From a virus (lineage: Duplodnaviria > Caudoviricetes): DNA of 64,000 nucleotides. Shown one piece after another: positions 2 to 56,451 of this stretch (positions are counted from its first letter, which is position 1; each line of letters begins with the position of its first letter). The stretch lies in IMG/VR virus record IMGVR_UViG_3300044991_001466. One strand, given 5' to 3'. The position numbers were made by a program, and so were the translations under genes. The notes beneath the pieces are model-generated. The model was not told the DNA's origin. It saw only the letters and a list, made by a program, of their open reading frames with translations, and ran no database searches.

Positions 2-892
2 AAACCAACGGATAGTCAATATGTTTATATATCTGCATATCAATATGTCGGTAGAACATTAAAAGATTCATTAAACAATTTAGGTAGTGCGGGAATATTC
101 CAACAAACAGGTTCATATTATTCAACTATTAATGATATCAAAATCACAGGGTCACTTGTTACTACAGGTGATTTAACTGTTGAAGGTACATTAACTGCGA
201 AGACGTTAATTATTTCGTCTTCAGTAACAAACATGGTTGTTCAATACGCTAGTGGATCAACAGCGTTTGGTGACACCGTAAATGACAATCATAATTTCAC
301 AGGTTCGGTTAATATCACTGGTTCATTAACAATTAATGGACAATCATTTAGTGCTGCAACATCAGGCACAAGTGGTTCATCAGGAACGGCAGGTTCATCA
401 GGAACAGCAGGTTCATCGGGTACTAGTGGTTCTGATGGTTCATCAGGTTCTAGTGGAAGTTCAGGTAGTAACGGTTCATCGGGTTCTAGCGGTACTGCGG
501 GTACATCTGGTTCAAGCGGTATTAGTGGGGTTAACGGAACAGATGGTTCTTCAGGTTCATCAGGAGATTCAATATTTGCACAAACGGGTTCTGCCCCTTA
601 TGATTTTTGGGCAACATCTAAAAATGTACAAATCACCGGTTCATTAATCACCTCAGGTTCTGTTATTATAAGGGGTGATTTAACGGTTGAAGGTACCACA
701 ACATTAAATCAAAAAAATGATTTAAATAGAGAATCTTTAATAGTATCAGGAGCGTTAAATATTGTTGAGAGAAGAGTTAATACAACGTTAACATCGGCCT
801 CATTATACTTTAATAATGAACTATCAATCATTAATAACACAATATCAAATCTAACATTCTCTGGAACATTTATTGACTCAGGAGAATTTTAA
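2..892 (+). CDS. 5'-truncated fibre-like structural protein with (S/T)-S-G repeat
   Basis: Frame is open from position 2 (KPTDSQYVY...) through the listed ATG at 233, so the real start is upstream of the window. Contains ITGSL/VTGS strand repeats, an SSG block and the C-terminus IDSGEF, which resembles IDGGTF of the next gene. Confidence 0.75.
   Translation, partial: KPTDSQYVYISAYQYVGRTLKDSLNNLGSAGIFQQTGSYYSTINDIKITGSLVTTGDLTVEGTLTAKTLIISSSVTNMVVQYASGSTAFGDTVNDNHNFTGSVNITGSLTINGQSFSAATSGTSGSSGTAGSSGTAGSSGTSGSDGSSGSSGSSGSNGSSGSSGTAGTSGSSGISGVNGTDGSSGSSGDSIFAQTGSAPYDFWATSKNVQITGSLITSGSVIIRGDLTVEGTTTLNQKNDLNRESLIVSGALNIVERRVNTTLTSASLYFNNELSIINNTISNLTFSGTFIDSGEF
359..565 (+). repeat. Gly-every-third-residue (S/T)-S-G coding repeat
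   Basis: Translated TSGTSGSSGTAGSSG...SSG, ending at SGDSIFAQTGS. Confidence 0.9.
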
Positions 893-971: not shown

Positions 972-3900
972 ATGGCACAAATTATTAAACACAGGAGGGG
1001 TCAGTTATCCGGAATAAAAGCTTTAACCGCAAACAATGGTGAAATTATTGTTGCGTCGGGTTCAATTTCAGATTTACAAGGACCATTTATTTTCATCGGT
1101 TCACCCGTATTACTGGATAATGGAACCGCTGGAGCCTTTAGTCCGGCCTCTAAAATATATACAGGAGCAGCTGCACCAACAATATTAAATGCGAGTTATG
1201 GTACTGCTTTAGATGGTACACCATTTTATGCTAGTGGTGACAAATCGTACTATATTTTAAATAATAGTGGTGCTGGTGGAAATACTAAATTAGATTTAAC
1301 AGGTAACATTGAAGGTAACACCATTAGTGGAGTTACTATTACCACATTAACAAGTACTAAGGGTACATTCAGTAGTCAAGTAAATGTTAGTGGGTCAATT
1401 AATGTTACAGGAAGTTTATTTATAAACGGTTCTGAATATACATCAAACTCTTCAGGTACTTCAGGTTCTTCAGGGTCTAGTGGCTCATCAGGAACTGCTG
1501 GTACATCAGGTTCTTCAGGTTCTAGTGGTTCATCAGGAACATCAGGTTCTTCAGGGTCAGACGGTTCTTCAGGAACTTCAGGTTCTAGTGGTTCAGCTGG
1601 TACTTCAGGTTCTAGTGGTTCTTCAGGAACGTCAGGTTCTAGTGGTTCTTCAGGAACTGCAGGAACATCAGGTTCTTCAGGGTCAGATGGTTCATCAGGT
1701 TCTTCAGGAACGTCAGGTTCTAGTGGTTCTTCAGGAACTGCAGGAACATCAGGTTCTTCAGGGTCAGATGGTTCATCAGGTTCATCAGGAACAAGTGGAT
1801 CATCAGGAACATCGGGTTCTAGTGGTTCTTCAGGAACGGCTGGTACTTCAGGAACATCAGGTTCTTCAGGTTCAGATGGTTCATCAGGATCTTCAGGTTC
1901 ATCAGGAACCGCTGGTACTTCAGGAACATCAGGTTCATCAGGTTCTTCAGGGTCAGATGGTTCATCAGGTTCTAGTGGTTCTGCGGGTACGTCAGGTTCA
2001 TCAGGGTCATCAGGAACTTCAGGTTCATCAGGTTCATCAGGGTCAGACGGTTCTTCAGGAACATCGGGATCATCAGGTTCATCAGGAACTTCAGGTTCAA
2101 GTGGTTCATCAGGAACTTCAGGTTCATCGGGTTCTTCAGGTTCTAATGGTACAGATGGTACTTCAGGAGATAGTTTATTCGCATTAACTGGTTCAATATG
2201 GTCTACCCAAAATCCAGTAAGAATAGTAGGAGCTTTAACCGCTTCAATGGTATCATCTTCATTCATAGGCGATGGTGCGGGTTTATATAATATTCCAGCA
2301 AGTGGTGTTACAGGTTTAGAATTAAATAAAATTGTAAACGGTGCGGTAAGTGCTTCAGTTTTATCTGACGGAACATTCAGAGTAAACGGTGATACATTTA
2401 TTAATGGTACCATCACGGCAAGACAATTAAATATTGATTATGTAACTTCATCAATTTTATACACATCAGGTTCAACTAAGTTTGGTGATACATTTGATGA
2501 TTTACATGAATTTACAGGAAGTGTAAACATAACAGGTTCTTTATTCTTAAATGGTGTAACAGTTGGAACGGGTAAACTAAATACAACTGATTTTAACTCA
2601 TATACATCTTCAGTAAATTCACAATTTGCAGGAACATCATCATTTGCGATTTCTTCATCATATGCTGTTTACGCGGAGAATGCAGTTATTGTTTCAGGTC
2701 AAACTAAAACATTAACAGTAACTACTCCATCAACAACATGGTCATTTACACACAATTTGGGTTATAAATTCCCAGCGATTAATGTTTTTGATGGTAATGA
2801 TAATGTAATAGTTCCTTCAGGAATTAAAGTAAAAAATAGTAATCTATTAGAGGTATATTTTAATAGTGTTGAAACGGGTACTGTAATTGCCACTATCGGT
2901 GGTAATGGTTCTTCTGGAACTTCAGGTTCAGGTGGTTCTTCTGGAACTTCAGGTTCTAGTGGTTCATCAGGAACATCAGGTTCTTCAGGGTCAGACGGTT
3001 CATCAGGAACTTCAGGTTCTAGTGGTTCTTCAGGAACTTCAGGTTCTAGCGGTTCTTCAGGAACATCAGGTTCCTCAGGTTCATCAGGAACTTCAGGTTC
3101 TAGTGGTTCATCAGGTTCTAATGGTACAGATGGTTCTTCAGGTTCTAGTGGTTCTTCAGGAACGGCTGGTACATCAGGAACTTCAGGTTCATCAGGTTCA
3201 GATGGTACTTCAGGAACATCAGGTTCTTCAGGAACTTCAGGTTCTAGTGGTTCATCAGGAACATCAGGTTCAAGTGGTACTGCGGGTACTTCAGGTTCTT
3301 CAGGGTCAGATGGTTCTAGCGGTTCTTCAGGAACAAGTGGTTCATCAGGTTCTTCAGGAACAAGTGGTTCATCAGGTTCTTCAGGAACTTCAGGCTCAAG
3401 TGGTTCTTCAGGAACTTCAGGTTCAGATGGTACTTCAGGAACATCAGGTACTTCAGGTTCGTCAGGTTCTTCAGGAACTGCGGGAACTTCAGGTTCTAGT
3501 GGTTCATCAGGAACTGCAGGTACATCAGGTTCTTCGGGTTCAGATGGTTCTTCAGGTACTTCAGGTTCTAGTGGTTCATCAGGAACATCAGGTTCATCAG
3601 GAACAGCGGGTACTTCAGGTTCTTCAGGTTCTTCAGGAACGAGTGGTTCTTCAGGTTCTTCAGGGTCTAGCGGTTCATCAGGTTCTTCAGGAGATAGTAT
3701 ATTCGCTTTAACAGGTTCAGTTTGGGAGACTAATTTAAATGTTAAGTTCAACCAATCAGTAACCTCATCTATATTCACAGGTTCATTTAAAGGTGATGGT
3801 GCAGGACTTTATAACATACCAGCAAGTGGTGTTACAGGATTACAATTAGACAAAATTGCAAGTGGAGCGGTAACAGCTTCAGTAACAGCGGCAGGTTTAC

Positions 3901-4580
3901 AAGTAAATGCTAACACATCTATCACAGGTTCTTTAAGTGTAAGTCAAGATGTTAGTTTCTTATCTAATTTGTTTGTATCAGGTAACCTACAAGTTTTGGG
4001 TTCATCAACAAATGTTAATATTGAATCACATACAGTTGAAATCGGTGATAATATCATCCAAGTAAACGCTTACTCACCATTTAACAGATATGCGGGTTTA
4101 TCAGCATACGATTCAGGTTCAGTAGGTGGTTCAGGTTCATTGTTATGGGATTCAACAAATGATTATTGGATACAAGTTGGTTCTAACGGACAATCAAGTA
4201 AAATGGTTGGAGTTACAGGAGGAGCATATGGTAGTGAAGCAAGTTTAACAACAAACGCAATACCAAAAGCAACTACAGGAAACACAATCGGTGATAGTTT
4301 GTTAACTGATAATGGTACAACATTAGCATACAACACTAACAAGTTTACCGTAGCATCTTCTGACGGAGCAACGTTAATCGCGGGTAATGTTACTGTAAGT
4401 GCAGCGGGTGGTAGTGACTCTAATAGTAAAACATCAGCAGTTACATTTAGAAACTCATCAAATGTTTTAGGTTATGTATCAACAACAGTTGGTAGTGACG
4501 TAACGGATGGTTTCTTAGGATATAAAACATCAAATGGTGGTTTAGTATTCTCGAATGTAATTGACGGAGGAACATTCTAA
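972..4580 (+). CDS. Large tail/virion fibre protein with two collagen-like SSG blocks
   Basis: 1202 aa. N-terminus MAQIIKHRRG resembles phage fibre attachment domains. Two Gly-X-Y blocks, a TWSFTHNLG...P...VYF module and a duplicated GDGAGLYNIPASGVTGL module. Confidence 0.8.
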   Translation: MAQIIKHRRGQLSGIKALTANNGEIIVASGSISDLQGPFIFIGSPVLLDNGTAGAFSPASKIYTGAAAPTILNASYGTALDGTPFYASGDKSYYILNNSGAGGNTKLDLTGNIEGNTISGVTITTLTSTKGTFSSQVNVSGSINVTGSLFINGSEYTSNSSGTSGSSGSSGSSGTAGTSGSSGSSGSSGTSGSSGSDGSSGTSGSSGSAGTSGSSGSSGTSGSSGSSGTAGTSGSSGSDGSSGSSGTSGSSGSSGTAGTSGSSGSDGSSGSSGTSGSSGTSGSSGSSGTAGTSGTSGSSGSDGSSGSSGSSGTAGTSGTSGSSGSSGSDGSSGSSGSAGTSGSSGSSGTSGSSGSSGSDGSSGTSGSSGSSGTSGSSGSSGTSGSSGSSGSNGTDGTSGDSLFALTGSIWSTQNPVRIVGALTASMVSSSFIGDGAGLYNIPASGVTGLELNKIVNGAVSASVLSDGTFRVNGDTFINGTITARQLNIDYVTSSILYTSGSTKFGDTFDDLHEFTGSVNITGSLFLNGVTVGTGKLNTTDFNSYTSSVNSQFAGTSSFAISSSYAVYAENAVIVSGQTKTLTVTTPSTTWSFTHNLGYKFPAINVFDGNDNVIVPSGIKVKNSNLLEVYFNSVETGTVIATIGGNGSSGTSGSGGSSGTSGSSGSSGTSGSSGSDGSSGTSGSSGSSGTSGSSGSSGTSGSSGSSGTSGSSGSSGSNGTDGSSGSSGSSGTAGTSGTSGSSGSDGTSGTSGSSGTSGSSGSSGTSGSSGTAGTSGSSGSDGSSGSSGTSGSSGSSGTSGSSGSSGTSGSSGSSGTSGSDGTSGTSGTSGSSGSSGTAGTSGSSGSSGTAGTSGSSGSDGSSGTSGSSGSSGTSGSSGTAGTSGSSGSSGTSGSSGSSGSSGSSGSSGDSIFALTGSVWETNLNVKFNQSVTSSIFTGSFKGDGAGLYNIPASGVTGLQLDKIASGAVTASVTAAGLQVNANTSITGSLSVSQDVSFLSNLFVSGNLQVLGSSTNVNIESHTVEIGDNIIQVNAYSPFNRYAGLSAYDSGSVGGSGSLLWDSTNDYWIQVGSNGQSSKMVGVTGGAYGSEASLTTNAIPKATTGNTIGDSLLTDNGTTLAYNTNKFTVASSDGATLIAGNVTVSAAGGSDSNSKTSAVTFRNSSNVLGYVSTTVGSDVTDGFLGYKTSNGGLVFSNVIDGGTF
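1449..2168 (+). repeat. Collagen-like (S/T/D)-(S/A)-G repeat, about 80 triplets
   Basis: 720 nt built from tca/tct/aca/act/ggt/gga codons. Confidence 0.95.
2901..3692 (+). repeat. Collagen-like (S/T/D)-(S/A)-G repeat, about 88 triplets
   Basis: 792 nt; same codon mosaic as 1449-2168. Confidence 0.95.
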
Positions 4581-4600
4581 TAGTAAGTTTAAATAAAATT

Positions 4601-4633
4601 AAAAGGAGACCCTAAAAAGTCTCCTTTTTTTAT
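4601..4633 (+). terminator. Intrinsic (rho-independent) terminator
   Basis: AAAAGGAGAC-cctaaaaa-GTCTCCTTTT stem followed by a T run, 20 nt after the stop at 4580. Confidence 0.85.
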
Positions 4634-4656
4634 TTATACAATACCAACTTTTGTTG

Positions 4657-4663
4657 TATTTAT
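4657..4663 (+). promoter_or_regulatory. TATTTAT motif, candidate late promoter
   Basis: TTGTATTTAT between the terminator and ATG 4731; overlaps the imperfect hairpin AATAC(C)AAC-TTTT-GTT-GTATT. Confidence 0.45.
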
Positions 4664-4730
4664 GTATAATACCTACATAGGTAATTAACCGTGATATATA
4701 TCACAAAGATTTTTAAGGAAACCCATACAT

Positions 4731-7700
4731 ATGGCACAAATAGTAAAACTACGCAGAAGTTCTGTAGCTGGCAATAAACCAGTTAATGAAACATTACAAT
4801 TAGGGGAATTAGCATTAAATACAACCGACGGTAAAATTTATTTAGCCGTATCTGGTTCAGATGGTCCTACAATTGAAGAGGTAATTACTACAAATGCATA
4901 TAATACAGGTTCAGTAAATCTTAGTGGTAGTCTAAAAGTTGTCGGTACAGAATATGTAACCGGCTCAGTTATAATAACGGGTTCTTTATTCGTTAACGGA
5001 AATTCATCATTCACATCATTAGTTGTTTCAGGTTCTGACCCTGTTGGTAATGTACAAGCTTACGTTCCACCAAGTTCAGTTTATGATCCTGCGTCATTTA
5101 ACACACCTGAAAGGGTTGCTAGTGGTATTCGTTTTAATTGGAATAATGAAAACTGGACTATTGGTGCAGCAAGAGGTGCAACAACCGATATTGATGGTTT
5201 AATTTTTAGTAGAAACGGAGTTAAAAAATACATGTTGGACGAAGATGGTAATGCATCTTTATCAGGTTCAATGTATATAAGCGGTTCATTATTTGTTAAT
5301 GGTGCTGAAGTTGGAACAGGTAAATTAAACGAAACAACATTTAATTCATATACAAGTTCAAATGTTTCACAATTTGCGGGAACATCATCATTTGCATTAA
5401 CCGCATCATATGTTGCAAATCCAACATTAGTATCAGGGTCAACAAAAAAATCAACAGTATCGGTAGGAGCAACAACATGGTCATTCAATCACCAATTAGG
5501 TGAAAGATATCCATCAATTAATGTATTCGATTCAAATGGTTTTGTTGTTATCCCTAAAGATATTGAAACAATAGATGCAAATAACTTAAATGTATATTTT
5601 TCATCAAATCAGACAGGTACAGTAATTGCAACAATAGGCGGAGGAGGTTCGTCAGGAACGAGTGGTAATGGTACTTCAGGAACAAGTGGTTCATCGGGTT
5701 CTAGTGGAACAAGTGGTTCATCAGGAACTAGTGGTGTTAACGGTTCTTCAGGTACAAGTGGTGGTTCAGGTTCTTCAGGGTCTAATGGTACATCAGGTTC
5801 ATCAGGAACGAGTGGTAGAGATGGTATTGGTGGTACAACACAAACATTTGCAGCATCTACAACATGGTCAGTAGCACATAATTTAGGTACTAATTTTCCG
5901 GCAGTAACTGTTTGGGACGATAATAAAAATGTGGTTATCCCAAGTCAAATAAAATCAATCGATACTAACAATATTGATGTTTATTTTGGTAGTCCAATTT
6001 CAGGTAGTGTAAATGTAATATTTGGTGGACATGTTGTTAGTGGTGCTATTGACACATCGGCGGTTGGACACATTGTACCTTCAGTTAATAACACATATGA
6101 TTTAGGTTCGGCATCAAAACAATTTAGACACTTATATTTGTCATCAGGTTCATTATATATTGACGGACAAAAAGTTTTGGGTAGTTCAAACCAAGAGTTA
6201 CAAATTACAACGGATAATGGTCAATCATTAAAAATATTAGAACAAGGTACCGATACTATCACATTACAAAGTGCTGACGGAGACATTCAATTAAAAACAT
6301 CTGCGGGTGGTAATGTATTGTTAGACCCAACAACAGGATTAATTGATTTAAGAGGAACGGTTCAAATACAAGACGGTAATAAAATTACAAGTTCAGGAGC
6401 AACTAAAGTTGTTTTTGGAAATGATATAGAAGTTACGGGTTCGATTAGAACAAGTGGTACATTAATTGTAAATGGGGTTTCATTCTCAGCCATGACATCA
6501 GGAACTTCAGGTTCAAGTGGTGGTTCGGGTTCATCTGGTTCAGGTGGTACTTCAGGAACATCAGGTTCTAATGGGTCTAGTGGAACATCAGGTTCATCAG
6601 GAACAAGTGGTACTTCAGGAAGTAGTGGAACGTCAGGCAGTTCAGGGTCATCGGGTACAAGTGGAACCTCAGTAACTGTTTCAGGTACTAACGATGTAAT
6701 TGGTAAATTCAGTTCAGGAACATTAGTTAATTCAAATATAACCGATAATGCTTCGGTAGTTAACATTAATTCAAATACAATAATCACAGGTTCATTGACG
6801 ATTACACAAAACTTAAATGTTTTAGGTTCATCATCAATAACTTATACGACAGCTTCCCAATTAAGGGTAGATGATAATGTTATTACGGTTAATGCCTCAA
6901 GTCCAGGTGTGAGATTTGCTGGTTTATCAGTAATTGATAGTGGTTCGTCACCTACCGTTTCGGGTTCATTCTTATTTGATTCATTAAATAATCAATTTGT
7001 TTATGTTCACACAAATCAAGGTGTGGTAACATCTTCAGTTGTTATGGTGGGTGCACAAACTTACAATAGTTTAGGAAATGAGATTTTACCCACACAAAAT
7101 AGAATATTAAAATCTTTAGGTCAGGAACATCTTGGTGATTCTAATATTTCAGATGATGGCACAACAGTTAAAATTAGTACAAACACAGAAATAACAGGTT
7201 CGTTAAGAGTTACAAGTTTAAATATTAACGGAACATCGTACGCCGCTGCTACAAGTGGAACGTCAGGTTCTTCAGGTAGTTCAGGTACAAGTGGTTCATC
7301 AGGAACATCAGGTTCTTCAGGTTCAAATGGTTCTTCAGGAACATCAGGTAGTTCAGGTTCTAGCGGAACATCTGGCAGTTCAGGTTCATCAGGAACATCA
7401 GGTTCTAGTGGTAGTAACGGTTCATCAGGTTCTAGTGGTACAACAACAATCACAAATGCGGTAGATAATAGAGTAATGACAAGTGTCGGTGGTGTTACGT
7501 TAAATGCGGAAGCGAATTTAACATTTGACGGATCAACATTAACAGTAACAGGAGCAGTATCAACAACCGGTAACTTAACAGTAGGTGGAACATTAACAGA
7601 AAACTCATCAGTAAGATATAAGGATAACATTGAAACTTTAAAATATGGTTTAGATAATGTTCTTAAAATGAGAGGTGTTTCATACATTAAAAAAGATACA

Positions 7701-7877
7701 GGTGTTAAAGAGATTGGTTTAATAGCAGAAGAGTTAAATGAAATTGCACCTGAATTGGTAAATAAAAATGAAGAAGGATTACCTGATTCCGTTTCTTACG
7801 GTAGAGTAGTTTCATATTTGATTGAAGCAATAAAAGATTTAAAGAAAGAAATTGAAGAACTTAAATCAAATAAATAA
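4731..7877 (+). CDS. Tail fibre protein with SSG repeats and C-terminal peptidase S74-like intramolecular chaperone
   Basis: N-terminus MAQIVKLRRS...GELALNTTDGKIY is Mtd-N-like. Two TWS.xH.LG modules and three SSG blocks. C-terminus SSVRYKDNI...IGLIAEEL...PELV...SYGRVVSYLIEAIKDL is typical of S74. Confidence 0.85.
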   Translation: MAQIVKLRRSSVAGNKPVNETLQLGELALNTTDGKIYLAVSGSDGPTIEEVITTNAYNTGSVNLSGSLKVVGTEYVTGSVIITGSLFVNGNSSFTSLVVSGSDPVGNVQAYVPPSSVYDPASFNTPERVASGIRFNWNNENWTIGAARGATTDIDGLIFSRNGVKKYMLDEDGNASLSGSMYISGSLFVNGAEVGTGKLNETTFNSYTSSNVSQFAGTSSFALTASYVANPTLVSGSTKKSTVSVGATTWSFNHQLGERYPSINVFDSNGFVVIPKDIETIDANNLNVYFSSNQTGTVIATIGGGGSSGTSGNGTSGTSGSSGSSGTSGSSGTSGVNGSSGTSGGSGSSGSNGTSGSSGTSGRDGIGGTTQTFAASTTWSVAHNLGTNFPAVTVWDDNKNVVIPSQIKSIDTNNIDVYFGSPISGSVNVIFGGHVVSGAIDTSAVGHIVPSVNNTYDLGSASKQFRHLYLSSGSLYIDGQKVLGSSNQELQITTDNGQSLKILEQGTDTITLQSADGDIQLKTSAGGNVLLDPTTGLIDLRGTVQIQDGNKITSSGATKVVFGNDIEVTGSIRTSGTLIVNGVSFSAMTSGTSGSSGGSGSSGSGGTSGTSGSNGSSGTSGSSGTSGTSGSSGTSGSSGSSGTSGTSVTVSGTNDVIGKFSSGTLVNSNITDNASVVNINSNTIITGSLTITQNLNVLGSSSITYTTASQLRVDDNVITVNASSPGVRFAGLSVIDSGSSPTVSGSFLFDSLNNQFVYVHTNQGVVTSSVVMVGAQTYNSLGNEILPTQNRILKSLGQEHLGDSNISDDGTTVKISTNTEITGSLRVTSLNINGTSYAAATSGTSGSSGSSGTSGSSGTSGSSGSNGSSGTSGSSGSSGTSGSSGSSGTSGSSGSNGSSGSSGTTTITNAVDNRVMTSVGGVTLNAEANLTFDGSTLTVTGAVSTTGNLTVGGTLTENSSVRYKDNIETLKYGLDNVLKMRGVSYIKKDTGVKEIGLIAEELNEIAPELVNKNEEGLPDSVSYGRVVSYLIEAIKDLKKEIEELKSNK
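5649..5825 (+). repeat. SSG repeat block A of the 4731 fibre
   Basis: SSGTSGNGTSGTSGSSG...TSGRDG. Confidence 0.85.
6495..6665 (+). repeat. SSG repeat block B of the 4731 fibre
   Basis: About 19 Gly-X-Y triplets. Confidence 0.85.
7251..7439 (+). repeat. SSG repeat block C of the 4731 fibre
   Basis: About 21 Gly-X-Y triplets. Confidence 0.85.
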
Positions 7878-47947: not shown

Positions 47948-50683
47948 ATGAAAATATTAGCTCACACATGTTTTATTGGAGTAACAGGATATGCTAATCA
48001 CGCAAAGTCCTTTTTTTGTGCTCTGAACAAATACCACACAGTAAAGGTTAGAAATTCAACGGTAGGTAGTGGATGGAAAGGGATGAATGACACTCCACAC
48101 GATAATGAGACCTATATAACCAACGAAATGAAGGATATGTTAATCCTTCAAACCCTTAACAATTCGGACGGTAGTAGGTCAGATTACCCCATTTATGGGT
48201 ATGATGGTGGATTTAAACCGGATGTTCACATTGTTTTGGTGGACACTAATAACTATTATTTCTATGAAAATTATGAGGGATATAAAATAGCATATAATGT
48301 TTGGGAATCAACACGTTATCCTGATGATTTCTTTCAAAGATTACATTACTTTGATGAAGTATGGGTACCAACCCAATGGCAATTTGATTGTTTAGTTGAA
48401 CAGGGTTACCCATCACATAAAATATCAATCGTTCCTGAGGGAGTTGATGTGGAGACATTTAAACCGTTAACTGAATTCCCGAAAAGAGATAAGAAAAGAT
48501 TTGTGTTGTTTGGTAGATGGGAGTGGAGAAAAGGAACCACTGAAATATTACAAGCATTTGCAGAAGAGTTCAAAGACCAAGATGATATTGAGTTAATCGC
48601 ATCAGTTGAGAACCCATATCCATCGGATGGTCTTAAGACCACTGAAGAAAGAATTAAACATTACGGTATCGACACCAAGAACATTAAGTTTGTTAAGTTT
48701 CCATTACAAACCGAATATGTTAATTATTTACAAACGGCCCATGCTTTTATTTCTTGTGCAAGAAGTGAAGGTTGGAATTTACCATTGATTGAGGCCATGG
48801 CTTGTGGAACACCATCTTTATATTCAAATTGGGGAGGACAATTACAATTTACATTAGATAAAGGTGTACCGGTTTCAATTAAAGGATTAACTCCCGCTAA
48901 TCACGAACACAAAGATTTCCCTGGTGAATATTGTGAACCTGATTGGGAAGATTTAAGATTTAAAATGCGTCAAGCTTATGATTATGATACTGCAATGTGG
49001 ATTACATCAAACGCAGACTCAAAAAGAATTCATAAAGATTTTAATTGGGATACAATAGCGAAAGGTGCGTGTAAAATCCTTGAAAATAAGTTTGATGATT
49101 TTGCTTTCATAACAACAGGCAACATTGGTTATATGCCGGTGATTGAAAAGTTAGTTCAATCACTATTAGAATTTTCTAAACGTAAGATTATAGTATATGG
49201 TATCGATTGTGAGGTTCCATTTGATTATCCAAATATCATTAAAAGAACTATAACAACACAAAAGATATCAGAACATGATAAATGGTATTGGAAACAAATG
49301 GCGTGTATTGAATCAGTTAATGAAGGTTTTGATAACTACGTTTGGATGGATGGAGATGTTGTTGTCAACTATAACGTTGACGATATTAAAAAATATTTCT
49401 CAGAAATTGAAAACTACCCAATATCCGATATACACGTACAAGAAGAATTTTTTGGTTGGTATGATGATGGAAAAAATTCGCAACTATTCAACGAACAAGT
49501 TGCAAATGATTGGGGGGTAGAAAAACAACAACCATATATGCATGTTTGTATGTATGTCTATAATAAAGAATGTAAATGGTGGTTTGAAGAAATTATAAGT
49601 CATTACGTGAAAGTTATGAAGGATGGAGGTAAAGATTACAAACGTCTATACCTATGGAATGATGAAGGTATTGATAATGCGATGAGATGGAAGTATAATT
49701 TTAAAAAACATTTACCACTATCGAACTTTGATACATCATCCTATGATGGTGATGATGGAATGACAGATGAAACACAACATCATTTCTTAAAGTTTTGGAA
49801 CGAGGAAGGTCCACAGAATTTCAATAGAGTATTTGGATATCAAGCAATACCTAAAGATAAAAATCAAATTTTATATTTCCACGGTAATAAGAATGCCGAT
49901 ATGTCTGATTTCATGATGAATTTTATCAAAATGAAACGTGACGATAGTTTCTATAAATCAGAACAATTCTACACATCATTAGATGTTAATACATATAAGT
50001 TAGAGAACTTAGGTGACATCAAGGATGTACAAGGAGGTACTATGGAAATTGCCGATAAGTATGGATGGGCTCGAGCAATTTATCATGAGATTTTTAATTT
50101 ACACGATTACTATAAAGGTGGTAATGAAAGAAGAATAAACGAAGGTGATGTTGTAGTTGATTTAGGTGGTAATATGGGAATCTTTAATAGATGGGCTTAT
50201 CATCAAGGGGCAAGTAAAGTAATTTCATTTGAACCGGATAGAAGATATTTTAAATTACTTTCACTTAATGCAGACCCACGTTCAATATTGTTCAACGCAG
50301 CCGTTGCTCACGAAATGGGAGAACTTAATTTATTTGAGAGTACTCACTTAGGTGGATCAAATGTTTTTGGAATTGAAGGTCAGGATGGGTATAGTGTTAA
50401 AACATACACTTTAGATTATCTTTTTGAAAGTGGTTTAATTGACCATATTGATTTTCTTAAAGTTGATATTGAAGGTGCGGAATATGCGGCATTTGCAGGT
50501 ATCAGTGATGAGAACTTACAAAAAGTTAAAACCATTGCTATGGAATATCATAATAGTCATTTTAATTTTGATGATGAATTAAGATCAAACTTCATTAAAA
50601 AAATGAACGGATTAGGGTTTAATTCATACCTATTATTTATGGGAAACAATAACGCTTTACAAATGATATATTTTTGGAAATGA
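47948..50683 (+). CDS. Three-domain fusion: GT4 glycosyltransferase + GT-A glycosyltransferase + FkbM methyltransferase
   Basis: GT4: VPEGVD..F.P, GRWEWRKG, SEGWNLPLIEAMACGTP. GT-A: YVWMDGDVVV, WNDEG. FkbM: VVDLGGNMGIF, SFEPD, IDFLKVDIEGAEY. Confidence 0.85.
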   Translation: MKILAHTCFIGVTGYANHAKSFFCALNKYHTVKVRNSTVGSGWKGMNDTPHDNETYITNEMKDMLILQTLNNSDGSRSDYPIYGYDGGFKPDVHIVLVDTNNYYFYENYEGYKIAYNVWESTRYPDDFFQRLHYFDEVWVPTQWQFDCLVEQGYPSHKISIVPEGVDVETFKPLTEFPKRDKKRFVLFGRWEWRKGTTEILQAFAEEFKDQDDIELIASVENPYPSDGLKTTEERIKHYGIDTKNIKFVKFPLQTEYVNYLQTAHAFISCARSEGWNLPLIEAMACGTPSLYSNWGGQLQFTLDKGVPVSIKGLTPANHEHKDFPGEYCEPDWEDLRFKMRQAYDYDTAMWITSNADSKRIHKDFNWDTIAKGACKILENKFDDFAFITTGNIGYMPVIEKLVQSLLEFSKRKIIVYGIDCEVPFDYPNIIKRTITTQKISEHDKWYWKQMACIESVNEGFDNYVWMDGDVVVNYNVDDIKKYFSEIENYPISDIHVQEEFFGWYDDGKNSQLFNEQVANDWGVEKQQPYMHVCMYVYNKECKWWFEEIISHYVKVMKDGGKDYKRLYLWNDEGIDNAMRWKYNFKKHLPLSNFDTSSYDGDDGMTDETQHHFLKFWNEEGPQNFNRVFGYQAIPKDKNQILYFHGNKNADMSDFMMNFIKMKRDDSFYKSEQFYTSLDVNTYKLENLGDIKDVQGGTMEIADKYGWARAIYHEIFNLHDYYKGGNERRINEGDVVVDLGGNMGIFNRWAYHQGASKVISFEPDRRYFKLLSLNADPRSILFNAAVAHEMGELNLFESTHLGGSNVFGIEGQDGYSVKTYTLDYLFESGLIDHIDFLKVDIEGAEYAAFAGISDENLQKVKTIAMEYHNSHFNFDDELRSNFIKKMNGLGFNSYLLFMGNNNALQMIYFWK

Positions 50684-51342
50684 GTACATTAAATAATTTG
50701 GCTAAAATACACGGAACGGATAAGTCTTCAGATAATCACAATTATTGTGTTAAATATGAAAAGTATTTACCATTTAACAGATACGATAAGTTAAACATAT
50801 TGGAAATTGGTGTCTTAGATGGTAAATCACTATTAACTTGGAAGGATTATTTTTATCGTTCTAATATTTTAGGTGTTGACATTAATCCTGATTGTAAAAA
50901 ATATGAAGAACCACGAATCTCTATCGAAATTGGTTCGCAGGATGATGGTAAATTCTTATCAAGAACTTGGCAACAATATGGCCCATTTGATATGATATTA
51001 GATGATGGGTCACATATGAATGAACACGTAATTTATTCATTTGAACATTTATTCGGTTCAGTTAAATCGGGTGGTGTGTACGTAATTGAGGACGTTGCAA
51101 CCTCATACTTCCCTTGGTACGGTGGGGGTTTAAATGACCCTAAGAGTATGATGGAATACTTCAAGAAATTGACTGACGACATTAACTTTAGAGGTGTAGA
51201 GAACTTAGATGACCAAGATGCGGTGTGGGATAGGCGTGAAGATAAATTAATACCCTATTCAAGTAAAGTACAACCTGATTGTAGAACTGATATAGAATCA
51301 ATAACCTTCCTTAACGGAATTATAATAATAACAAAAAGATAA
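50680..51342 (+). CDS. Class I SAM methyltransferase (sugar O-methyltransferase, MycE/ElmM-like)
   Basis: ATGA-coupled start at 50680; HGTDK, ILEIGV, GSQDD, GPFDMILDDGSH, GGVYVIED. Confidence 0.8.
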   Translation: MSTLNNLAKIHGTDKSSDNHNYCVKYEKYLPFNRYDKLNILEIGVLDGKSLLTWKDYFYRSNILGVDINPDCKKYEEPRISIEIGSQDDGKFLSRTWQQYGPFDMILDDGSHMNEHVIYSFEHLFGSVKSGGVYVIEDVATSYFPWYGGGLNDPKSMMEYFKKLTDDINFRGVENLDDQDAVWDRREDKLIPYSSKVQPDCRTDIESITFLNGIIIITKR

Positions 51343-53471
51343 TGGGATATACACAATTTACTGAAGATGTGTTTGTGGTCGATTGCTGGCCAGATAATAA
51401 AGATAAAGAAAACGTTTTAAAGAAATTACTAACAAGTTTAAAGGTTTATAATTGTCCAATTATATTATGTGGACATTATCCTGTAAATCCTGATATTCAA
51501 AAATTGGCAGATTATTACATTTACGATTCAAATAACGATGTTTTATTGGAGAAAGATTTTGAAGAGTATGGAGTTAATAGTGATAGATGGACTGACATGG
51601 GAAACTATAAAATAACCAATAAAGTTGAGTTTCATCATGATTATGCCATTTGGTTAACAATGAAAAACGCATTTAATTTGGTTAAACAATTAGGAAAAAA
51701 ATATATTCATTTCTTGGAATACGATAACTTACCCGACGAAACTCAATATCGTCAGGCGTTTATGGAATATATGAGAAGTAACGATGCGGTTGTGTACGAA
51801 TATTCGGAAGGCTCAACCAAAGAAGAAAACCCATACAGTGCAACCTATCTATTTTCAATAAAAACTGATATCGCAATCGAATTAGTAAGTAAAATTAACA
51901 GTAAAGAAGAATACTTTAAAAATAAACCAAATAGATGGCAGTTAGAAAAGGTATTTTATCAAACATTAAAAAGTATCACTAATAATATTTTTGTAAGTAA
52001 GTACATCGCTAACGATAACGAACTAAACATATTTGCCGCATGGAATAGAAATGGGATTACAAAAAATGGTGCTCGTTTACAAACCTATTTAGGTGTGGAC
52101 GATTTTAATCAACTATATGTTCATTTCATTTCAGGATTTTCAGAGAAACCCGCTAACTTAGATTATTTGGTTGAAATTAATTACGGGAGTTTTAAAAAAT
52201 TCTTAACGGTTAAGAAGGGACAATACATTTTAGAGAAAATTGATGAATATCGTCAAGGACAATCTTTTCAAGTTTTCTATAGAGGAGTTGAAATTTTTAA
52301 CCAAGAATTAACAAATGATGTTGAGGAATTTAAAAGAAAAAATAAAGTAATCAAACGTAATAGTGGAATTAATAATAAGAAAAATATCATAGCACATTTT
52401 GTTGATGGTCCATTTTTAGAAATTAAAGAAGACGGTGATAATTTATACAACGTACAATTCATAAATAAGAAAAACAATAAAATTGAATTTGAAATTAATT
52501 TAAAGAGTAATCATTGGTGTAGGTCTGCAAAAAAATACTACGTTGATTGGTTAGTTAAGATTAAAGGAATTGATAATGATTTTTATTATGAATACGGTTT
52601 AGACTTTAAAGGTAAACAGGTGATGATTTGTTTTGAATCAAAATCTTTGGGAGATAGTTTAGCTTGGGTACCATATGTTGAGAAGTTTAGAAAAGAAAAT
52701 AATTGTGAGGTTGTTTGTTCAACGTTCCATAATGATTTGTTTAAATCAGAATATCCTAATATTAAATTTGTGTTACCCGGCACTTCAGTAGATGACGTAT
52801 ATGCCTTATATCGTTTAGGTATATTTTATGATGATAAACGTAATATTGATTACACCAAACATATTACCGACCCTAAAAAAGAACCACTATTAAAAGTTGC
52901 GTCTGATATTTTAGGTTTATCTTATGAAGAATTGAGACCCAAGTTAAAAAAATTAGGTAAAAAGAAACAAAAAAGAGTTTGTATTGGAATACATTCAACC
53001 GCTCAATGTAAATATTGGAATAATCCAACTGGTTGGCAAGATGTGGTTAACTACCTTAAAAATGAAGGATATGAGGTTAGACTATTATCAAAAGAGGAAA
53101 ATGGTTACATGGGGAACACACACCCAACAGGAATTACACTTCAACCAACAGGTTCAATAGATAAATTAATAAAAACTTTGCAGGAGTCTGAATTATTTAT
53201 AGGTATAAGTAGTGGTTTAAGTTGGTTATCATGGGCAACTGAAACCCCAACTGTTATTATTTCTGGTTTCACCGACGTTGATTTAGAACCAATAGATGGT
53301 GTAACAAGAATAATTAATAAAAATGTTTGTAATAGTTGTTGGTCAAATCACGATTTTGATCCTGGAGATTGGAATTGGTGTCCCGAATTAAAAAACACGG
53401 AAAGACAGTTTGAATGTTCAAAATCCATCACATCAACACAAGTCATAGATGAAATTAAAAAATTAATATAA
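51342..53471 (+). CDS. GT-like N-terminal domain + TibC/Aah-like (BAHT) protein O-glycosyltransferase
   Basis: HFVDGPFLEI, SKSLGDSLAW, CKYWNN..GW, FIGISSGLSWLSWA, and the Cys motif CNSCW...WCP...RQFECSKSIT as in TibC. Confidence 0.82.
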   Translation: MGYTQFTEDVFVVDCWPDNKDKENVLKKLLTSLKVYNCPIILCGHYPVNPDIQKLADYYIYDSNNDVLLEKDFEEYGVNSDRWTDMGNYKITNKVEFHHDYAIWLTMKNAFNLVKQLGKKYIHFLEYDNLPDETQYRQAFMEYMRSNDAVVYEYSEGSTKEENPYSATYLFSIKTDIAIELVSKINSKEEYFKNKPNRWQLEKVFYQTLKSITNNIFVSKYIANDNELNIFAAWNRNGITKNGARLQTYLGVDDFNQLYVHFISGFSEKPANLDYLVEINYGSFKKFLTVKKGQYILEKIDEYRQGQSFQVFYRGVEIFNQELTNDVEEFKRKNKVIKRNSGINNKKNIIAHFVDGPFLEIKEDGDNLYNVQFINKKNNKIEFEINLKSNHWCRSAKKYYVDWLVKIKGIDNDFYYEYGLDFKGKQVMICFESKSLGDSLAWVPYVEKFRKENNCEVVCSTFHNDLFKSEYPNIKFVLPGTSVDDVYALYRLGIFYDDKRNIDYTKHITDPKKEPLLKVASDILGLSYEELRPKLKKLGKKKQKRVCIGIHSTAQCKYWNNPTGWQDVVNYLKNEGYEVRLLSKEENGYMGNTHPTGITLQPTGSIDKLIKTLQESELFIGISSGLSWLSWATETPTVIISGFTDVDLEPIDGVTRIINKNVCNSCWSNHDFDPGDWNWCPELKNTERQFECSKSITSTQVIDEIKKLI

Positions 53472-53536: not shown

Positions 53537-55018
53537 ATGAAAATATTTGATCCGATTATAACTGGTTCGGCAACAATTACGGGAGATTTAACCGTAAATG
53601 GTACAATAAACGCGACTATTAGTGGTACTACCTCAAATGCATTAACCATAAACACAACTGGTTCTGCACGTTTGGCTACCACAGGTAGTAACTTATTTGT
53701 TGGAAATCAAACTGTAAGTGGTTCTATTGTCCCTTCAGTTAATGATGTCTACGATTTAGGTAGTTTAACATATCAATGGAGAGATTTATATCTTTCTTCA
53801 GGTTCATTATATATTGACGGAACCCAAGTACTATCCTCAAATGCTACAGAGGTAATTTTCTCAACAGATACTGGTCAATCGATTAAATTGAATGAAGCGG
53901 GTACTGATACTATTACATTACAAACGGTAGATGGTAATATTGAATTAAAATCATCAGGTGGAGGTGATATAACATTGGACCCAACTGCCGGTTTAATTAC
54001 CGTTAAGGGTACATTACAAATGCAAGATGGTAATAAAATCACAAGTTCGGGAGCAAGTAAAGTTGTTGTTGGAAATGATTTAGAAGTTACAGGGTCTATA
54101 CGTACCACTGGAACATTGGTTATGAATGGAGTTTCATTCAGTGCAATGACGTCAGGTACTTCAGGTTCAAGTGGTTCTTCAGGAACTTCGGGATCTAATG
54201 GTTCTTCAGGAACATCAGGTTCTTCAGGTTCTTCAGGAACATCAGGTTCAAGTGGGTCATCTGGAACATCAGGTTCTAGTGGTTCATCAGGTTCTAACGG
54301 TTCATCAGGTACTTCAGGTTCAAGTGGGTCATCTGGAACCTCAGGTTCTTCAGGTTCTTCAGGAACATCAGGTTCATCAGGTTCTAATGGTTCTTCAGGA
54401 TCATCAGGCACTTCAGGTTCAAGTGGTTCATCAGGAACATCAGGTTCATCAGGTTCTAACGGTTCATCAGGAACATCAGGTTCATCAGGTTCTAACGGTT
54501 CATCAGGTTCTAATGGTTCTTCAGGTTCTTCAGGTACAACTACAATTACAAACGCGTCTGCTGACCGTGTAATGACAAGTGAAGGTGGCGTTACCTTAAA
54601 TGGTGAAGCAAGTTTAACATTTAACGGAACAACTCTATATGTGGCTGGAGCATTAGGTGTGGGTACATCAACACCAGTAACCACAGGTTTAATTAGAGCA
54701 ACAAATGACGTTATAGCCTACTATGGTTCTGATGAAAGATTAAAAGAAAATATTCAATCAATTACAGGTTCTTTAGATATATTAAAACAAATCAACGGTT
54801 ATTATTTCGATTGGAAAGAAATGCCGGGTATACATGAGAACGAAGGTCACGATATTGGGGTAATAGCACAAGAAATTAACTCAGTTTTACCTGAAATTGT
54901 AACTACAAGAGACAATGGTTATATGGCTGTTAAATACGAAAAATTAGTTGCTTTGTTAATTCAAACAAACAAAGAATTGTTAATTCGTGTTGAGGCTTTA
55001 GAATCTAAAATAAAATAG
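53537..55018 (+). CDS. Tail fibre protein with SSG repeat and peptidase S74-like chaperone (paralogue of 4731)
   Basis: Shares the IVPSVN..YDLGS...LYLSSGSLYIDG...GNKITSSGA.KVV.GND.EVTGSIRT module. C-terminus SDERLKENI...IGVIAQEI...LPEIV...VKYEKLVALLI. Confidence 0.85.
   Translation: MKIFDPIITGSATITGDLTVNGTINATISGTTSNALTINTTGSARLATTGSNLFVGNQTVSGSIVPSVNDVYDLGSLTYQWRDLYLSSGSLYIDGTQVLSSNATEVIFSTDTGQSIKLNEAGTDTITLQTVDGNIELKSSGGGDITLDPTAGLITVKGTLQMQDGNKITSSGASKVVVGNDLEVTGSIRTTGTLVMNGVSFSAMTSGTSGSSGSSGTSGSNGSSGTSGSSGSSGTSGSSGSSGTSGSSGSSGSNGSSGTSGSSGSSGTSGSSGSSGTSGSSGSNGSSGSSGTSGSSGSSGTSGSSGSNGSSGTSGSSGSNGSSGSNGSSGSSGTTTITNASADRVMTSEGGVTLNGEASLTFNGTTLYVAGALGVGTSTPVTTGLIRATNDVIAYYGSDERLKENIQSITGSLDILKQINGYYFDWKEMPGIHENEGHDIGVIAQEINSVLPEIVTTRDNGYMAVKYEKLVALLIQTNKELLIRVEALESKIK
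54149..54535 (+). repeat. Collagen-like SSG repeat, about 43 triplets
   Basis: TSGTSGSSGSSGTSGSNG... encoded by the same codon mosaic as the other blocks. Confidence 0.95.
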
Positions 55019-55365: not shown

Positions 55366-55809
55366 ATGAATATTACGTATAATAAAACCCCATCAAAATA
55401 CGAATTAGAATACGTTAAATGGAATGGAATTAACTTTGATAGGGAAATCCTTATTAAGTTTATAAAACGTCTTAAAGTGACGTTTTTTTTGTCGTTTATA
55501 CCACAATACAAAAGAGAACATAAAATTTTAAAAAACATTCTAAGTACATACGATGATGTTCGTATTAAGGGATTGTTAAATAATGACGAGAACATCGTTA
55601 GATTATGTTTTATTGAAAAATGGGCAAGAATTGCCGCCACAGATATCCTATTAACAAACGTATATTCAAGAGAGACCTTCACAACAATTAGTAATTTACC
55701 AATACGTGATTATCAATTACTATTAAAAAGAACCGAAGAGTTAATAATTTCAGGTAGAAATCTTGCCATCCAAAGTAACAATGTCTCAAATGACATACCA
55801 GGTTTATAA
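55366..55809 (+). CDS. Hypothetical protein
   Basis: 147-aa ORF behind a clear promoter, TAATG-coupled to the next gene. Confidence 0.65.
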   Translation: MNITYNKTPSKYELEYVKWNGINFDREILIKFIKRLKVTFFLSFIPQYKREHKILKNILSTYDDVRIKGLLNNDENIVRLCFIEKWARIAATDILLTNVYSRETFTTISNLPIRDYQLLLKRTEELIISGRNLAIQSNNVSNDIPGL

Positions 55810-56450
55810 TGAAAAACATTAATAATAGCACATTATGGGATGTTAAGCCCATTAAATTATCAATATTAGTCCCAACTAGAGACACCGTACATTCACATTT
55901 CTCATATTGTTTGGCTCAATTATATAAAACAACTTCAGATGTTGGAATTGATGTTAGTTTATATTACGATTCAAGTACGATTCTAACAAATCAAAGGGGT
56001 AGATTGGTCAATATGGCTATTGAATCTAAATCAGATTATATGTTGTGGTTGGATAGTGATATGATGTTCCCCCAGACCACCGCCATTCGTCTTTTAGAAC
56101 ACAATAAGGACATTGTGGCGTGTAACTATATGAGACGTACAAAACCTCTTAAAACGGTTGCATATACCGATTTAAATGATTGGGATAGTTGGTTACCTAT
56201 GGAACCTAAAGACGAGTTAATTAAAGTACAAGGCGTGGGTATGGGTTGTATGTTAGTAAAAACAGACATATTCAAAAACATTACCAAACCATACTTTGAA
56301 TTCACCTACAAAGAGGACACAGATGATTGGCATGGAGAAGATTTTAACCTTCTTAGAAAATTTAGAGAAGTTGGATATGACGTACATATTGACACCATAT
56401 TAAGTATGGATATTAAACATGTTGGAATGTATGCTTTCGGAGCTGAGTAA
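55809..56450 (+). CDS. GT-A fold glycosyltransferase (GT2-like)
   Basis: ILVPTRD, R..LV..A, MLWLDSDMMFP, GVGMGCML, GEDF, H.G. Confidence 0.75.
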   Translation: MKNINNSTLWDVKPIKLSILVPTRDTVHSHFSYCLAQLYKTTSDVGIDVSLYYDSSTILTNQRGRLVNMAIESKSDYMLWLDSDMMFPQTTAIRLLEHNKDIVACNYMRRTKPLKTVAYTDLNDWDSWLPMEPKDELIKVQGVGMGCMLVKTDIFKNITKPYFEFTYKEDTDDWHGEDFNLLRKFREVGYDVHIDTILSMDIKHVGMYAFGAE

Positions 56451-56451
56451 T

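What the first reader, a model, noticed from the sequence alone, without database searches (positions are those of the whole stretch)
972..7877. Proline-free collagen-like (S/T)-S-G fibres as probable O-glycosylation scaffolds
Seen: Gly at every third residue over blocks of about 80, 88, 19, 21 and 43 triplets in four proteins (2, 972, 4731, 53537), with X/Y almost entirely Ser/Thr plus some Asp/Asn/Ala and essentially no Pro. Established: S74 chaperones trimerise fibres; Pro-poor collagens can be stabilised by Thr glycosylation (vent-worm cuticle collagen), and B. anthracis BclA collagen-like repeats are glycosylated. Inference: these blocks supply hundreds of hydroxyl acceptors for the adjacent glycosylation island, giving a glycan-brush fibre or a flexible spacer for reaching through capsule.
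Basis: partly seen in the sequence, partly recalled or inferred. Interest (0 to 1): 0.7.

Follow-up and report, generated by a model that had tools for sequence, protein, structure and literature searches.

The report
Proline-free collagen-like phage tail fibres
Four tail-fibre genes of a large uncultured phage have long collagen-type Gly-X-Y stalks built almost only of serine and threonine, and such stalks occur with a phage enzyme of the family that puts sugars on protein serines, so the fibres are probably sugar-coated, though no sugar has been measured.

Summary
There are seven uninterrupted Gly-X-Y blocks of 19 to 89 triplets, 294 in all, in four fibre genes. X is Ser or Thr, Y is mostly Ser, and there is no Pro. 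All 294 Gly codons are intact, although about 10% of X/Y positions vary, and Ser uses both codon families, so the period is selected at the protein level.

New here: the gene just upstream of fibre D (51342-53471) is a true TibC/Aah-type protein O-heptosyltransferase (BAHT; TIGR04414, 290 bits against a cut-off of 200).
- BAHT was found in 33 of 109 viral records that carry such repeats, and in 0 of 95 records picked by a Gly-Pro-X pattern.
- In a GC-matched set of homologous S74 fibres it was found in 18 of 25 records with the repeats and 0 of 51 without.
- All ten near-complete genomes with repeat runs of at least 25 triplets, or a repeat-bearing S74 fibre, have it.
- It is usually within 5 kb of the fibre gene.
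- A cultured Microcystis phage, Mel-JY01, has the same pairing.

This scan has already proposed the same idea on at least eight other genomes and on this genome's island. I found no paper describing it. It is a new variant of known kinds (BclA, phage collagen-like fibres, BAHT).

The parts
2..892 (+). Fibre A, the C-terminal part of a gene that starts before the window. It has a 23-triplet Ser/Thr Gly-X-Y block at nt 365-571.
   Evidence: Pfam Collagen; PHROG tail fibre.
972..4580 (+). Fibre B, 1202 aa. Blocks of 80 triplets (nt 1455-2174) and 89 triplets (nt 2898-3698). No S74 domain.
   Evidence: Conserved junction motifs flank the blocks.
4731..7877 (+). Fibre C, 1048 aa. Blocks of 19, 19 and 21 triplets (nt 5670-5840, 6501-6671, 7257-7445). 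C-terminal Peptidase_S74 intramolecular chaperone at about nt 7605-7760.
53537..55018 (+). Fibre D, 493 aa. One 43-triplet block (nt 54155-54541) and a Peptidase_S74 chaperone at about nt 54728-54901. It is a paralogue of the C-terminal half of fibre C.
51342..53471 (+). Two-domain enzyme of 709 aa. Residues 1-347 have a GT-A-like fold (low confidence). Residues 348-708 (nt 52383-53468) are a TibC/Aah-type protein O-heptosyltransferase (BAHT). The gene ends 66 nt before fibre D.
   Evidence: TIGR04414, 289.6 bits, cut-off 200; TibC 4RAP, E 1.4e-54, four Cys of the iron site aligned; fold of the N-terminal half.
47948..51342 (+). A GT4 glycosyltransferase fused to an FkbM methyltransferase (47948-50683), then a second methyltransferase (50674-51342), directly upstream of the BAHT gene. 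The same gene order is found in record G215, and the GT4 and BAHT modules are fused into one protein in Microcystis phage Mel-JY01.
12793..47915 (.). Main sugar island: three GT7-like transferases (two of them fused to ConA/LamG-like domains), a GT2, radical SAM enzymes, methyltransferases, SDR epimerases/dehydratases, a dTDP-sugar isomerase, a split TPP enzyme, a carbamoyltransferase, an APS-kinase-like protein and 2OG oxygenases. None has several membrane spans.
55366..63998 (.). The island continues after fibre D: an Anp1-like GT, three GT2, an epimerase, an SDR, a KAS III enzyme, a PhyH dioxygenase, a hexapeptide acyltransferase and a methyltransferase.

Best explanation
The four genes encode trimeric tail or side fibres. 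Their stalk segments are Pro-free, nearly uncharged collagen-type Gly-(Ser/Thr)-Ser triple helices. They are held in register by conserved junction modules and, in fibres C and D, by a C-terminal S74 trimerising chaperone. In the infected cell's cytoplasm the phage's TibC/Aah-type O-glycosyltransferase (ORF 51342, next to fibre D) puts a first sugar on Ser or Thr of these blocks. The fused GT-A-like domain, the neighbouring GT4-FkbM enzyme and other soluble enzymes of the island then extend and decorate it. The result would be a glycan-covered stalk whose length changes quickly by repeat gain and loss. Shown: the repeats and selection on them, the fibre context, the BAHT family membership, and the tight cross-genome linkage of BAHT with this repeat type. 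Inferred: the triple helix, that the repeat is the acceptor, the identity of the sugar, and the benefit (helix stability, protease or adsorption shielding, reach).
For: 1) Repeat under protein-level selection: 294 of 294 Gly codons are intact against 10% variation at X/Y, and both Ser codon families are used. 2) Fibre identity: PHROG tail-fibre families and S74 chaperones. 3) ORF 51342 residues 348-708 are a BAHT: TIGR04414 at 289.6 bits against a cut-off of 200, TibC E 1.4e-54, with the four iron-site Cys and the LGD motif aligned. The gene stops 66 nt before fibre D. 4) BAHT is rare in phages, 4 of 50,697 INPHARED records. It is present in 33 of 109 IMG/VR records found only by a G-(S/T)-(S/T) DNA pattern, against 0 of 95 found by a G-P-X pattern (Fisher 9e-11). 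These BAHTs are diverse, forming 33 clusters at 70% identity. 5) GC-matched set of homologous S74 fibres: 18 of 25 records with the repeat have BAHT against 0 of 51 without (Fisher 4e-12). The three apparent exceptions each turned out to have a repeat-bearing fibre directly beside BAHT. 6) Near-complete genomes: 10 of 10 with repeat runs of at least 25 triplets (first sample) or a repeat-bearing S74 fibre (matched set) have BAHT. The six BAHT-negative ones in the first sample were four off-target simple repeats and two with only 12-14 triplets. 7) Proximity: 23 of 33 BAHT genes have a repeat-bearing ORF within about 10 kb, and 19 within 5 kb. 8) No protein in the window has several membrane spans, so there is no flippase, polymerase or lipid-carrier transferase. 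That fits a soluble protein target. 9) Cultured Microcystis phage Mel-JY01 has a Gly-Thr/Ser-Ser fibre of at least 1016 aa about 1.7 kb upstream of a GT4 and BAHT fusion protein.
Against: No glycan has been observed on any of these fibres. Known BAHT substrates are beta-helical autotransporter repeats, not collagen-like sequences. Thr sits in X, not in the Y position where glycosylated Thr stabilises Riftia collagen and BclA. A Pro-free (Gly-Ala-Ser)n already forms a weak triple helix at 25 C without sugar (PMC7682875), so the repeat does not need glycosylation to be explained. Fibres A to C lie about 43 kb from the BAHT gene. No ADP-heptose synthesis gene was recognised in the window, so the donor sugar is unknown. 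One BAHT-bearing megaphage (LR756504) has no such repeat within 20 kb. The matched sample is enriched in relatives of this phage, so its counts are not fully independent, and its repeat-free class was judged only from the 1 kb upstream of each S74 match.
Confidence: 0.55

Rival explanations
1. The blocks are unglycosylated collagen-like or simply extended stalks. BAHT and the island act on something else: other Ser/Thr-rich fibre domains, other virion proteins, or host envelope components (superinfection exclusion or O-antigen change, the usual reading of transferases beside phage fibre genes).
For: PMC7029224 reads glycosyltransferases in the fibre region of pelagimyophages as host O-chain modifiers. 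Bucl8 (Gly-Ala-Ser)n folds without sugar. The prophage collagen-like fibre EPclA is PAS-negative. The non-repeat parts of these fibres are also about 24% Ser plus Thr.
Against: BAHT tracks the repeat itself: 0 of 51 homologous S74 fibres without the repeat have it. There is no membrane-embedded glycan machinery in the window. BAHT is a cytoplasmic protein glycosyltransferase by family.
Confidence: 0.2
2. The blocks are glycosylated but are not triple helices. They would be mucin-like, intrinsically extended Ser/Thr/Gly brushes or flexible tethers between folded trimeric modules.
For: There is no Pro and almost no charge, so the expected triple-helix stability is low (established host-guest propensities; the 33 C estimate for Gly-Ala-Ser is cited in PMC7682875). 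No solved structure has a Ser/Thr-only Gly-X-Y helix. Block length varies widely between close relatives, 43 against 114 triplets.
Against: The Gly period is strict, with no break in 294 triplets here and runs of up to 786 triplets elsewhere. A disordered linker does not need that. Trimerising modules lie at the ends of the blocks.
Confidence: 0.17
3. The repeats are neutral expansions of a 9-nt microsatellite with no structural or acceptor role.
For: Tandem Repeats Finder reports nested periods of 9, 27, 36 and 81 nt. Copy number changes fast between relatives.
Against: DNA copies are only 64-75% alike while the protein pattern is exact. Gly uses four synonymous codons and Ser uses two codon families. 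The composition is conserved across 108 diverse viral loci.
Confidence: 0.05

Closest known systems
BclA exosporium glycoprotein of Bacillus anthracis (collagen-like (Gly-Pro-Thr)n, O-glycosylated; Daubenspeck 2004, cited in PMC3368898)
   Same: A microbial trimeric fibre with a collagen-like stalk of variable length that carries O-linked sugars on hydroxyl residues, and a C-terminal trimerising domain.
   Different: BclA has Pro in X and the acceptor Thr in Y. Here there is no Pro, Y is Ser and Thr is in X. The candidate enzyme family is different (BAHT). This is a phage virion, not a spore. Glycosylation is not shown here.
TibC/TibA and Aah/AIDA-I (bacterial autotransporter heptosyltransferases, TIGR04414; PDB 4RAP, 4RB4)
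   Same: ORF 51342 residues 348-708 score above the equivalog cut-off and align over the whole of TibC, including the four-Cys iron site. Both are cytoplasmic enzymes encoded next to a Ser-rich repetitive substrate gene.
   Different: The known substrates are 19-residue beta-helix repeats of secreted adhesins. Here the neighbour is a collagen-like phage fibre. The enzyme carries an extra N-terminal GT-A-like domain, and the donor sugar is unknown.
Prophage collagen-like tail fibre proteins EPclA/EPclB of E. coli O157:H7 (PMC3368898)
   Same: Phage tail-fibre proteins with a Gly-X-Y domain between trimerisation modules.
   Different: EPcl collagen has Pro in about half of the X positions and many charged pairs, melts at 42 C and is PAS-negative. 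The blocks here have no Pro and almost no charge.
Bucl8 (Gly-Ala-Ser)n of Burkholderia pseudomallei (PMC7682875)
   Same: A Pro-free, uncharged, small-residue Gly-X-Y repeat of variable copy number anchored to a trimer. Circular dichroism suggests a weak triple helix.
   Different: It has 6-38 triplets in an outer-membrane efflux protein, Ala in X, and no linked glycosyltransferase.
Riftia vent-worm cuticle collagen (Thr(Gal) in Y; Bann 2000, cited in PMC3368898) and giant-virus collagen-like proteins with their own glycosylation genes (from my own knowledge)
   Same: The concept that sugar can replace hydroxyproline as a stabiliser, and a virus that encodes both a collagen-like protein and the sugar machinery.
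   Different: The acceptor position (Y-Thr) or acceptor residue (hydroxylysine), the enzymes and the host domain all differ.

Membership tests
Collagen triple-helix repeat proteins (PF01391) | Gly at every third residue over long uninterrupted runs | tested here: met
   Seven runs of 19-89 triplets with no break. PF01391 matches above its cut-off in all four proteins.
Collagen triple-helix repeat proteins (PF01391) | Stabilising residues (Pro/Hyp, or charged pairs as in bacterial collagens) | tested here: not met
   0 Pro in 588 X/Y positions. 16 Asp, 1 Arg, no Glu or Lys.
Collagen triple-helix repeat proteins (PF01391) | Adjacent trimerisation domain | tested here: met
   Peptidase_S74 chaperone at the C-termini of fibres C and D. 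Conserved junction modules flank the blocks. None was identified for fibre B.
Collagen triple-helix repeat proteins (PF01391) | Actual triple-helix formation | not testable with these tools
   It needs circular dichroism or cryo-EM. No solved structure has a comparable sequence.
BAHT protein O-heptosyltransferases (TIGR04414) | Whole-length match above the curated equivalog cut-off | tested here: met
   289.6 bits against 200, model positions 14-374 of 374. TibC residues 23-386 of 406 align, E 1.4e-54.
BAHT protein O-heptosyltransferases (TIGR04414) | Four-Cys iron-binding site and the LGD motif (catalytic Asp110 of TibC; its role is from my memory of the TibC structure papers) | tested here: met
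   All four Cys and the LGD motif are aligned and identical.
BAHT protein O-heptosyltransferases (TIGR04414) | Transfers heptose from ADP-heptose to Ser/Thr of a neighbouring repetitive protein | not testable with these tools
   No ADP-heptose pathway gene was recognised in the window. Only adjacency to the Ser-rich fibre is shown.
Peptidase_S74 intramolecular chaperone fibres (PF13884) | C-terminal chaperone domain above the Pfam cut-off | tested here: met
   Fibre C 39.1 bits and fibre D 64.3 bits against a cut-off of 22.
Peptidase_S74 intramolecular chaperone fibres (PF13884) | Autoproteolytic release after trimerisation | not tested
   The cleavage-site residues were not examined.

The most novel reading that the evidence does not exclude
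A widespread, undescribed phage system of cytoplasmic protein O-glycosylation. A BAHT-type enzyme primes serines of Pro-free collagen-like fibre stalks, and up to about fifty phage enzymes build a complex methylated, carbamoylated and possibly sulfated glycan on them. The phage would then carry its own glycocalyx, and sugar would take the place of proline as the stabiliser of a triple helix.
Probability: 0.3. Interest if true: 0.85.

Novelty: new variant of a known kind. Interest (0 to 1): 0.68.

Why it matters
Virion glycosylation is barely documented in phages. Glycosyltransferases beside phage fibre genes are routinely read as host O-antigen or DNA modifiers. If these fibres are the substrate, then:
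- many such auxiliary genes in aquatic phages are really virion-maturation genes;
- phage adsorption, stability and recognition would depend on phage-made glycans;
- there would be a natural Pro-free, sugar-dependent collagen design of interest for biomaterials.

The pairing is common. A cultured phage, Mel-JY01, carries it, so the idea can be tested directly.

Tried and rejected
- **Trimer prediction.** Fibre D residues 185-360, three copies, gave no verdict (score 0.00, the chain's own fold uncertain). It counts neither for nor against.
- **INPHARED searches.** Megablast of 16 kb of the window found no match. tblastn with fibre C found only short domain-level hits, because the low-complexity filter masks the repeats.
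- **Whole genome.** None is held for this window, so I could not look for ADP-heptose genes or hallmark genes. That this is a T4-like phage of freshwater Bacteroidota comes only from earlier scan notes and is unverified here.
- **N-terminal half of ORF 51342.** No Pfam, PDB-sequence or internal-duplication signal. The AlphaFold model is mediocre (pLDDT 59.7), and its Foldseek hits show only a generic GT-A/nucleotidyl-sugar transferase fold.
- **PDB sequence search with the repeat.** It matches animal collagens through the Gly period alone, which is not informative.
- **First control set.** The G-P-X pattern is palindromic and probably drawn from other habitats, so I added the GC-matched S74-fibre control.
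- **Six near-complete BAHT-negative records.** They first looked like counter-examples and also lack GT2 and GT4. Four are off-target simple repeats (Gly-Ser-Cys type) and two have only 12-14 triplets.
- **Literature.** Searches for a phage BAHT, glycosylated tail fibres or Mel-JY01 found no paper on this pairing.
- **Long DNA pattern.** A shorter one was used.
Full report
**Observation**

The window starts with three co-oriented fibre genes: 2-892 (5' open), 972-4580 and 4731-7877. A fourth lies at 53537-55018. A script found seven uninterrupted Gly-X-Y runs of 23, 80, 89, 19, 19, 21 and 43 triplets, 294 in all.
- X is Ser (180) or Thr (103).
- Y is Ser (241), with Asp, Asn and Ala at 15-16 each.
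- Pro is absent.

Pfam Collagen matches all four proteins. Peptidase_S74 matches the C-termini of fibres C and D. PHROGs assigns all four to tail-fibre and 'collagen like minor tail' families. The long Pro/Glu ORFs on the opposite strand are mirror images of the repeat.

**Is the repeat selected?**

The DNA copies are only 64-75% alike, yet every one of the 294 Gly codons is intact, using four synonymous codons. By contrast, 10.4% of X/Y positions are not Ser or Thr. At that rate the chance of no Gly change is about 1e-14. Y-position Ser uses both TCN (188) and AGY (53) codons, which cannot interconvert by a single substitution without passing through another residue. So the period and the hydroxyl-rich composition are kept at the protein level.

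Five blocks begin after a shared junction (…TGS-x-x-x-NG…TS|GTSGSSG). They end in one of two shared junctions, so the blocks are cassettes between folded modules. Orthologous fibres in close relatives carry very different triplet numbers, for example 114 against 43 in a fibre whose S74 end is 80% identical. Block length therefore evolves fast.

**Surroundings**

From 12.8 kb to the end of the window almost every gene is a sugar enzyme:
- three GT7-like transferases, two of them fused to ConA/LamG-like domains;
- GT2, GT4-FkbM and Anp1-like transferases;
- radical SAM enzymes, methyltransferases and four SDR epimerases/dehydratases;
- a dTDP-sugar isomerase, a split TPP enzyme and a carbamoyltransferase;
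- an APS-kinase-like protein, 2OG and PhyH oxygenases, a KAS III enzyme and an acyltransferase.

A hydropathy scan of 62 proteins found no protein with several membrane spans, so no flippase, polymerase or lipid-carrier transferase is present. That fits a soluble acceptor.

**The key enzyme**

ORF 51342-53471 ends 66 nt before fibre D. Its residues 348-708 match TIGR04414, the autotransporter strand-loop-strand O-heptosyltransferase model (Aah/TibC), at 289.6 bits against a cut-off of 200. They align with nearly the whole of TibC (4RAP) at E 1.4e-54, including the four Cys of the iron site and the LGD motif.

The N-terminal 347 residues have no sequence match. A mediocre model (pLDDT 59.7) resembles GT-A/nucleotide-diphospho-sugar transferases. 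Homologues of this half occur as separate genes near BAHT in about ten other loci.

**Co-occurrence, first sample**

BAHT is rare in phages: tblastn found it in 4 of 50,697 INPHARED records. Of these loci, 108 hold Ser/Thr-rich Gly-X-Y runs, with Pro at 0.9% of X/Y and runs of up to 786 triplets.

| Sample | Records searched | With TIGR04414 |
|---|---|---|
| Found by the G-(S/T)-(S/T) pattern | 109 | 33 (31 above cut-off) |
| Found by a G-P-X pattern | 95 | 0 |

Fisher's test gives 9e-11. The 33 enzymes are diverse: 33 clusters at 70% identity, median identity 39%, locus GC 26-55%. In 23 of 33 cases a repeat-bearing ORF lies within about 10 kb of the BAHT domain, and in 19 within 5 kb.

Seven of thirteen near-complete records had BAHT. 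The six that did not also lack GT2 and GT4. Four of those are off-target simple repeats and two have only 12-14 triplets. So all seven near-complete records with runs of at least 25 triplets carry BAHT.

**Co-occurrence, matched sample**

The first control may differ in habitat, so I collected 80 IMG/VR homologues of fibre D's S74 end. I classed each by whether a Ser/Thr block lies in the 1 kb upstream of the S74 match; median GC was 0.36 for those with a block and 0.35 for those with no Gly-X-Y block. BAHT was found in 18 records. Fifteen were already classed as repeat-bearing. The other three each proved, on fetching more DNA, to have a repeat-bearing fibre directly beside the BAHT gene.

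| Class | Records | With BAHT |
|---|---|---|
| Repeat-bearing S74 fibre | 25 | 18 |
| No such repeat | 51 | 0 |

Fisher's test gives 4e-12.
- All seven negatives in the repeat-bearing class are fragments at most 38% complete.
- Near-complete records score 3 of 3 with the repeat and 0 of 5 without.
- Record G215 (335 kb) repeats the window's gene order: GT4-FkbM, methyltransferase, GT-A plus BAHT, then the repeat/S74 fibre.
- Caveat: the repeat-bearing records are enriched among the closest relatives of this phage, so this sample is less independent than the first.

**A cultured example**

Microcystis phage Mel-JY01 (PP395634) encodes a 1226-aa protein with GT4 and TibC/GT9 domains, annotated as an FkbM methyltransferase. 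Upstream of it lies an unannotated open frame of at least 1016 aa made of Gly-Thr/Ser-Ser triplets. GenBank annotates the antisense Pro-rich ORFs there instead. Of the other INPHARED hits, one megaphage has a repeat ORF 5 kb from BAHT and one has none within 20 kb.

**Interpretation**

The best reading (confidence 0.55) has three parts:
- The blocks are triple-helical stalk segments of trimeric fibres.
- They are the acceptors of a phage-encoded cytoplasmic O-glycosylation pathway started by the BAHT enzyme.
- Neighbouring enzymes of the island extend the glycan.

The linkage is shown. The helix, the acceptor site and the sugar are inferred.

Points against:
- Known BAHT substrates are beta-helix repeats, not collagen-like sequences.
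- Thr lies in X rather than in the Y position used in Riftia collagen and BclA.
- EPclA, the studied phage collagen-like fibre, is Pro-rich, charged and unglycosylated.
- The Pro-free (Gly-Ala-Ser)n of Bucl8 gives a weak triple-helix CD signal at 25 C without sugar. Sugar is therefore not required for folding in cold fresh water.
- No ADP-heptose gene was seen in the window.

The rivals are an unglycosylated stalk with BAHT acting elsewhere (0.2), a glycosylated but non-helical mucin-like brush (0.17), and a neutral microsatellite (0.05).

**Novelty**

This scan has already raised the same idea on at least eight other genomes and for this genome's island. Those notes are not independent evidence, but my own tests agree with them. 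My paper searches found no description of a phage BAHT or of glycosylated Pro-free collagen-like phage fibres. The usual published reading of transferases next to phage fibre genes is host O-chain or DNA modification.

I rate this a new variant of known kinds: collagen-like phage fibres, the BclA-type glycosylated collagen-like stalk, and BAHT enzymes.

Noticed in passing
L121 (PP395634.1) 1-3052: In cultured Microcystis phage Mel-JY01, GenBank annotates two minus-strand Pro-rich 'hypothetical proteins' (1-651, 739-2298). These are the mirror image of an unannotated plus-strand collagen-like fibre frame of at least 1016 aa. The record probably starts inside this gene.
   Followed up: partly
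window 7877-9254: Three tandem small paralogues (156, 155 and 146 aa), each starting MA(T/N)L and sharing an LRFTN motif, directly after the S74 fibre C. They have no Pfam or PHROG match. They may be fibre-tip or assembly proteins.
   Followed up: no
window 9534-12778: Three proteins share a conserved N-terminal region of about 50 residues (MA-x-L-x-N-x-TI…LP-x-G…RP) followed by different C-termini, two of them ConA/LamG-like. This is the pattern of interchangeable receptor-binding heads on a common anchor. Relatives L113 and L082 have homologues next to their fibres.
   Followed up: partly
window 15170-19987: Three tandem GT7-like (beta-1,4-galactosyltransferase-type) enzymes, two of them fused to Laminin_G_3/ConA-like lectin domains. 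This is an unusual architecture for a phage.
   Followed up: no
window 26038-26586 and 31305-31937 (minus strand): A TPP-dependent enzyme appears split into an E1/TPP-binding part and a transketolase-like pyrimidine-binding part about 5 kb apart. Sugar epimerases, a dTDP-sugar isomerase and an SDR fused to a 2OG oxygenase lie between them. This suggests synthesis of a branched-chain sugar.
   Followed up: no
L061, L062, L025 (IMG/VR loci): Some viral contigs carry uninterrupted Ser/Thr Gly-X-Y runs of 786, 429 and 329 triplets, far longer than any block in this window.
   Followed up: no
L008, L073 (contigs named GVMAG-…): The Ser/Thr Gly-X-Y DNA pattern also hits contigs labelled as giant-virus metagenome-assembled genomes. 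These records were not held for searching.
   Followed up: no
window 51342-52382 and loci L240, L241, L242, L244, L250, L256, L267: The N-terminal GT-A-like half of the BAHT fusion occurs as a free-standing gene, sometimes in several copies, a few kb from BAHT in other phages. It looks like a mobile module of the same pathway.
   Followed up: partly
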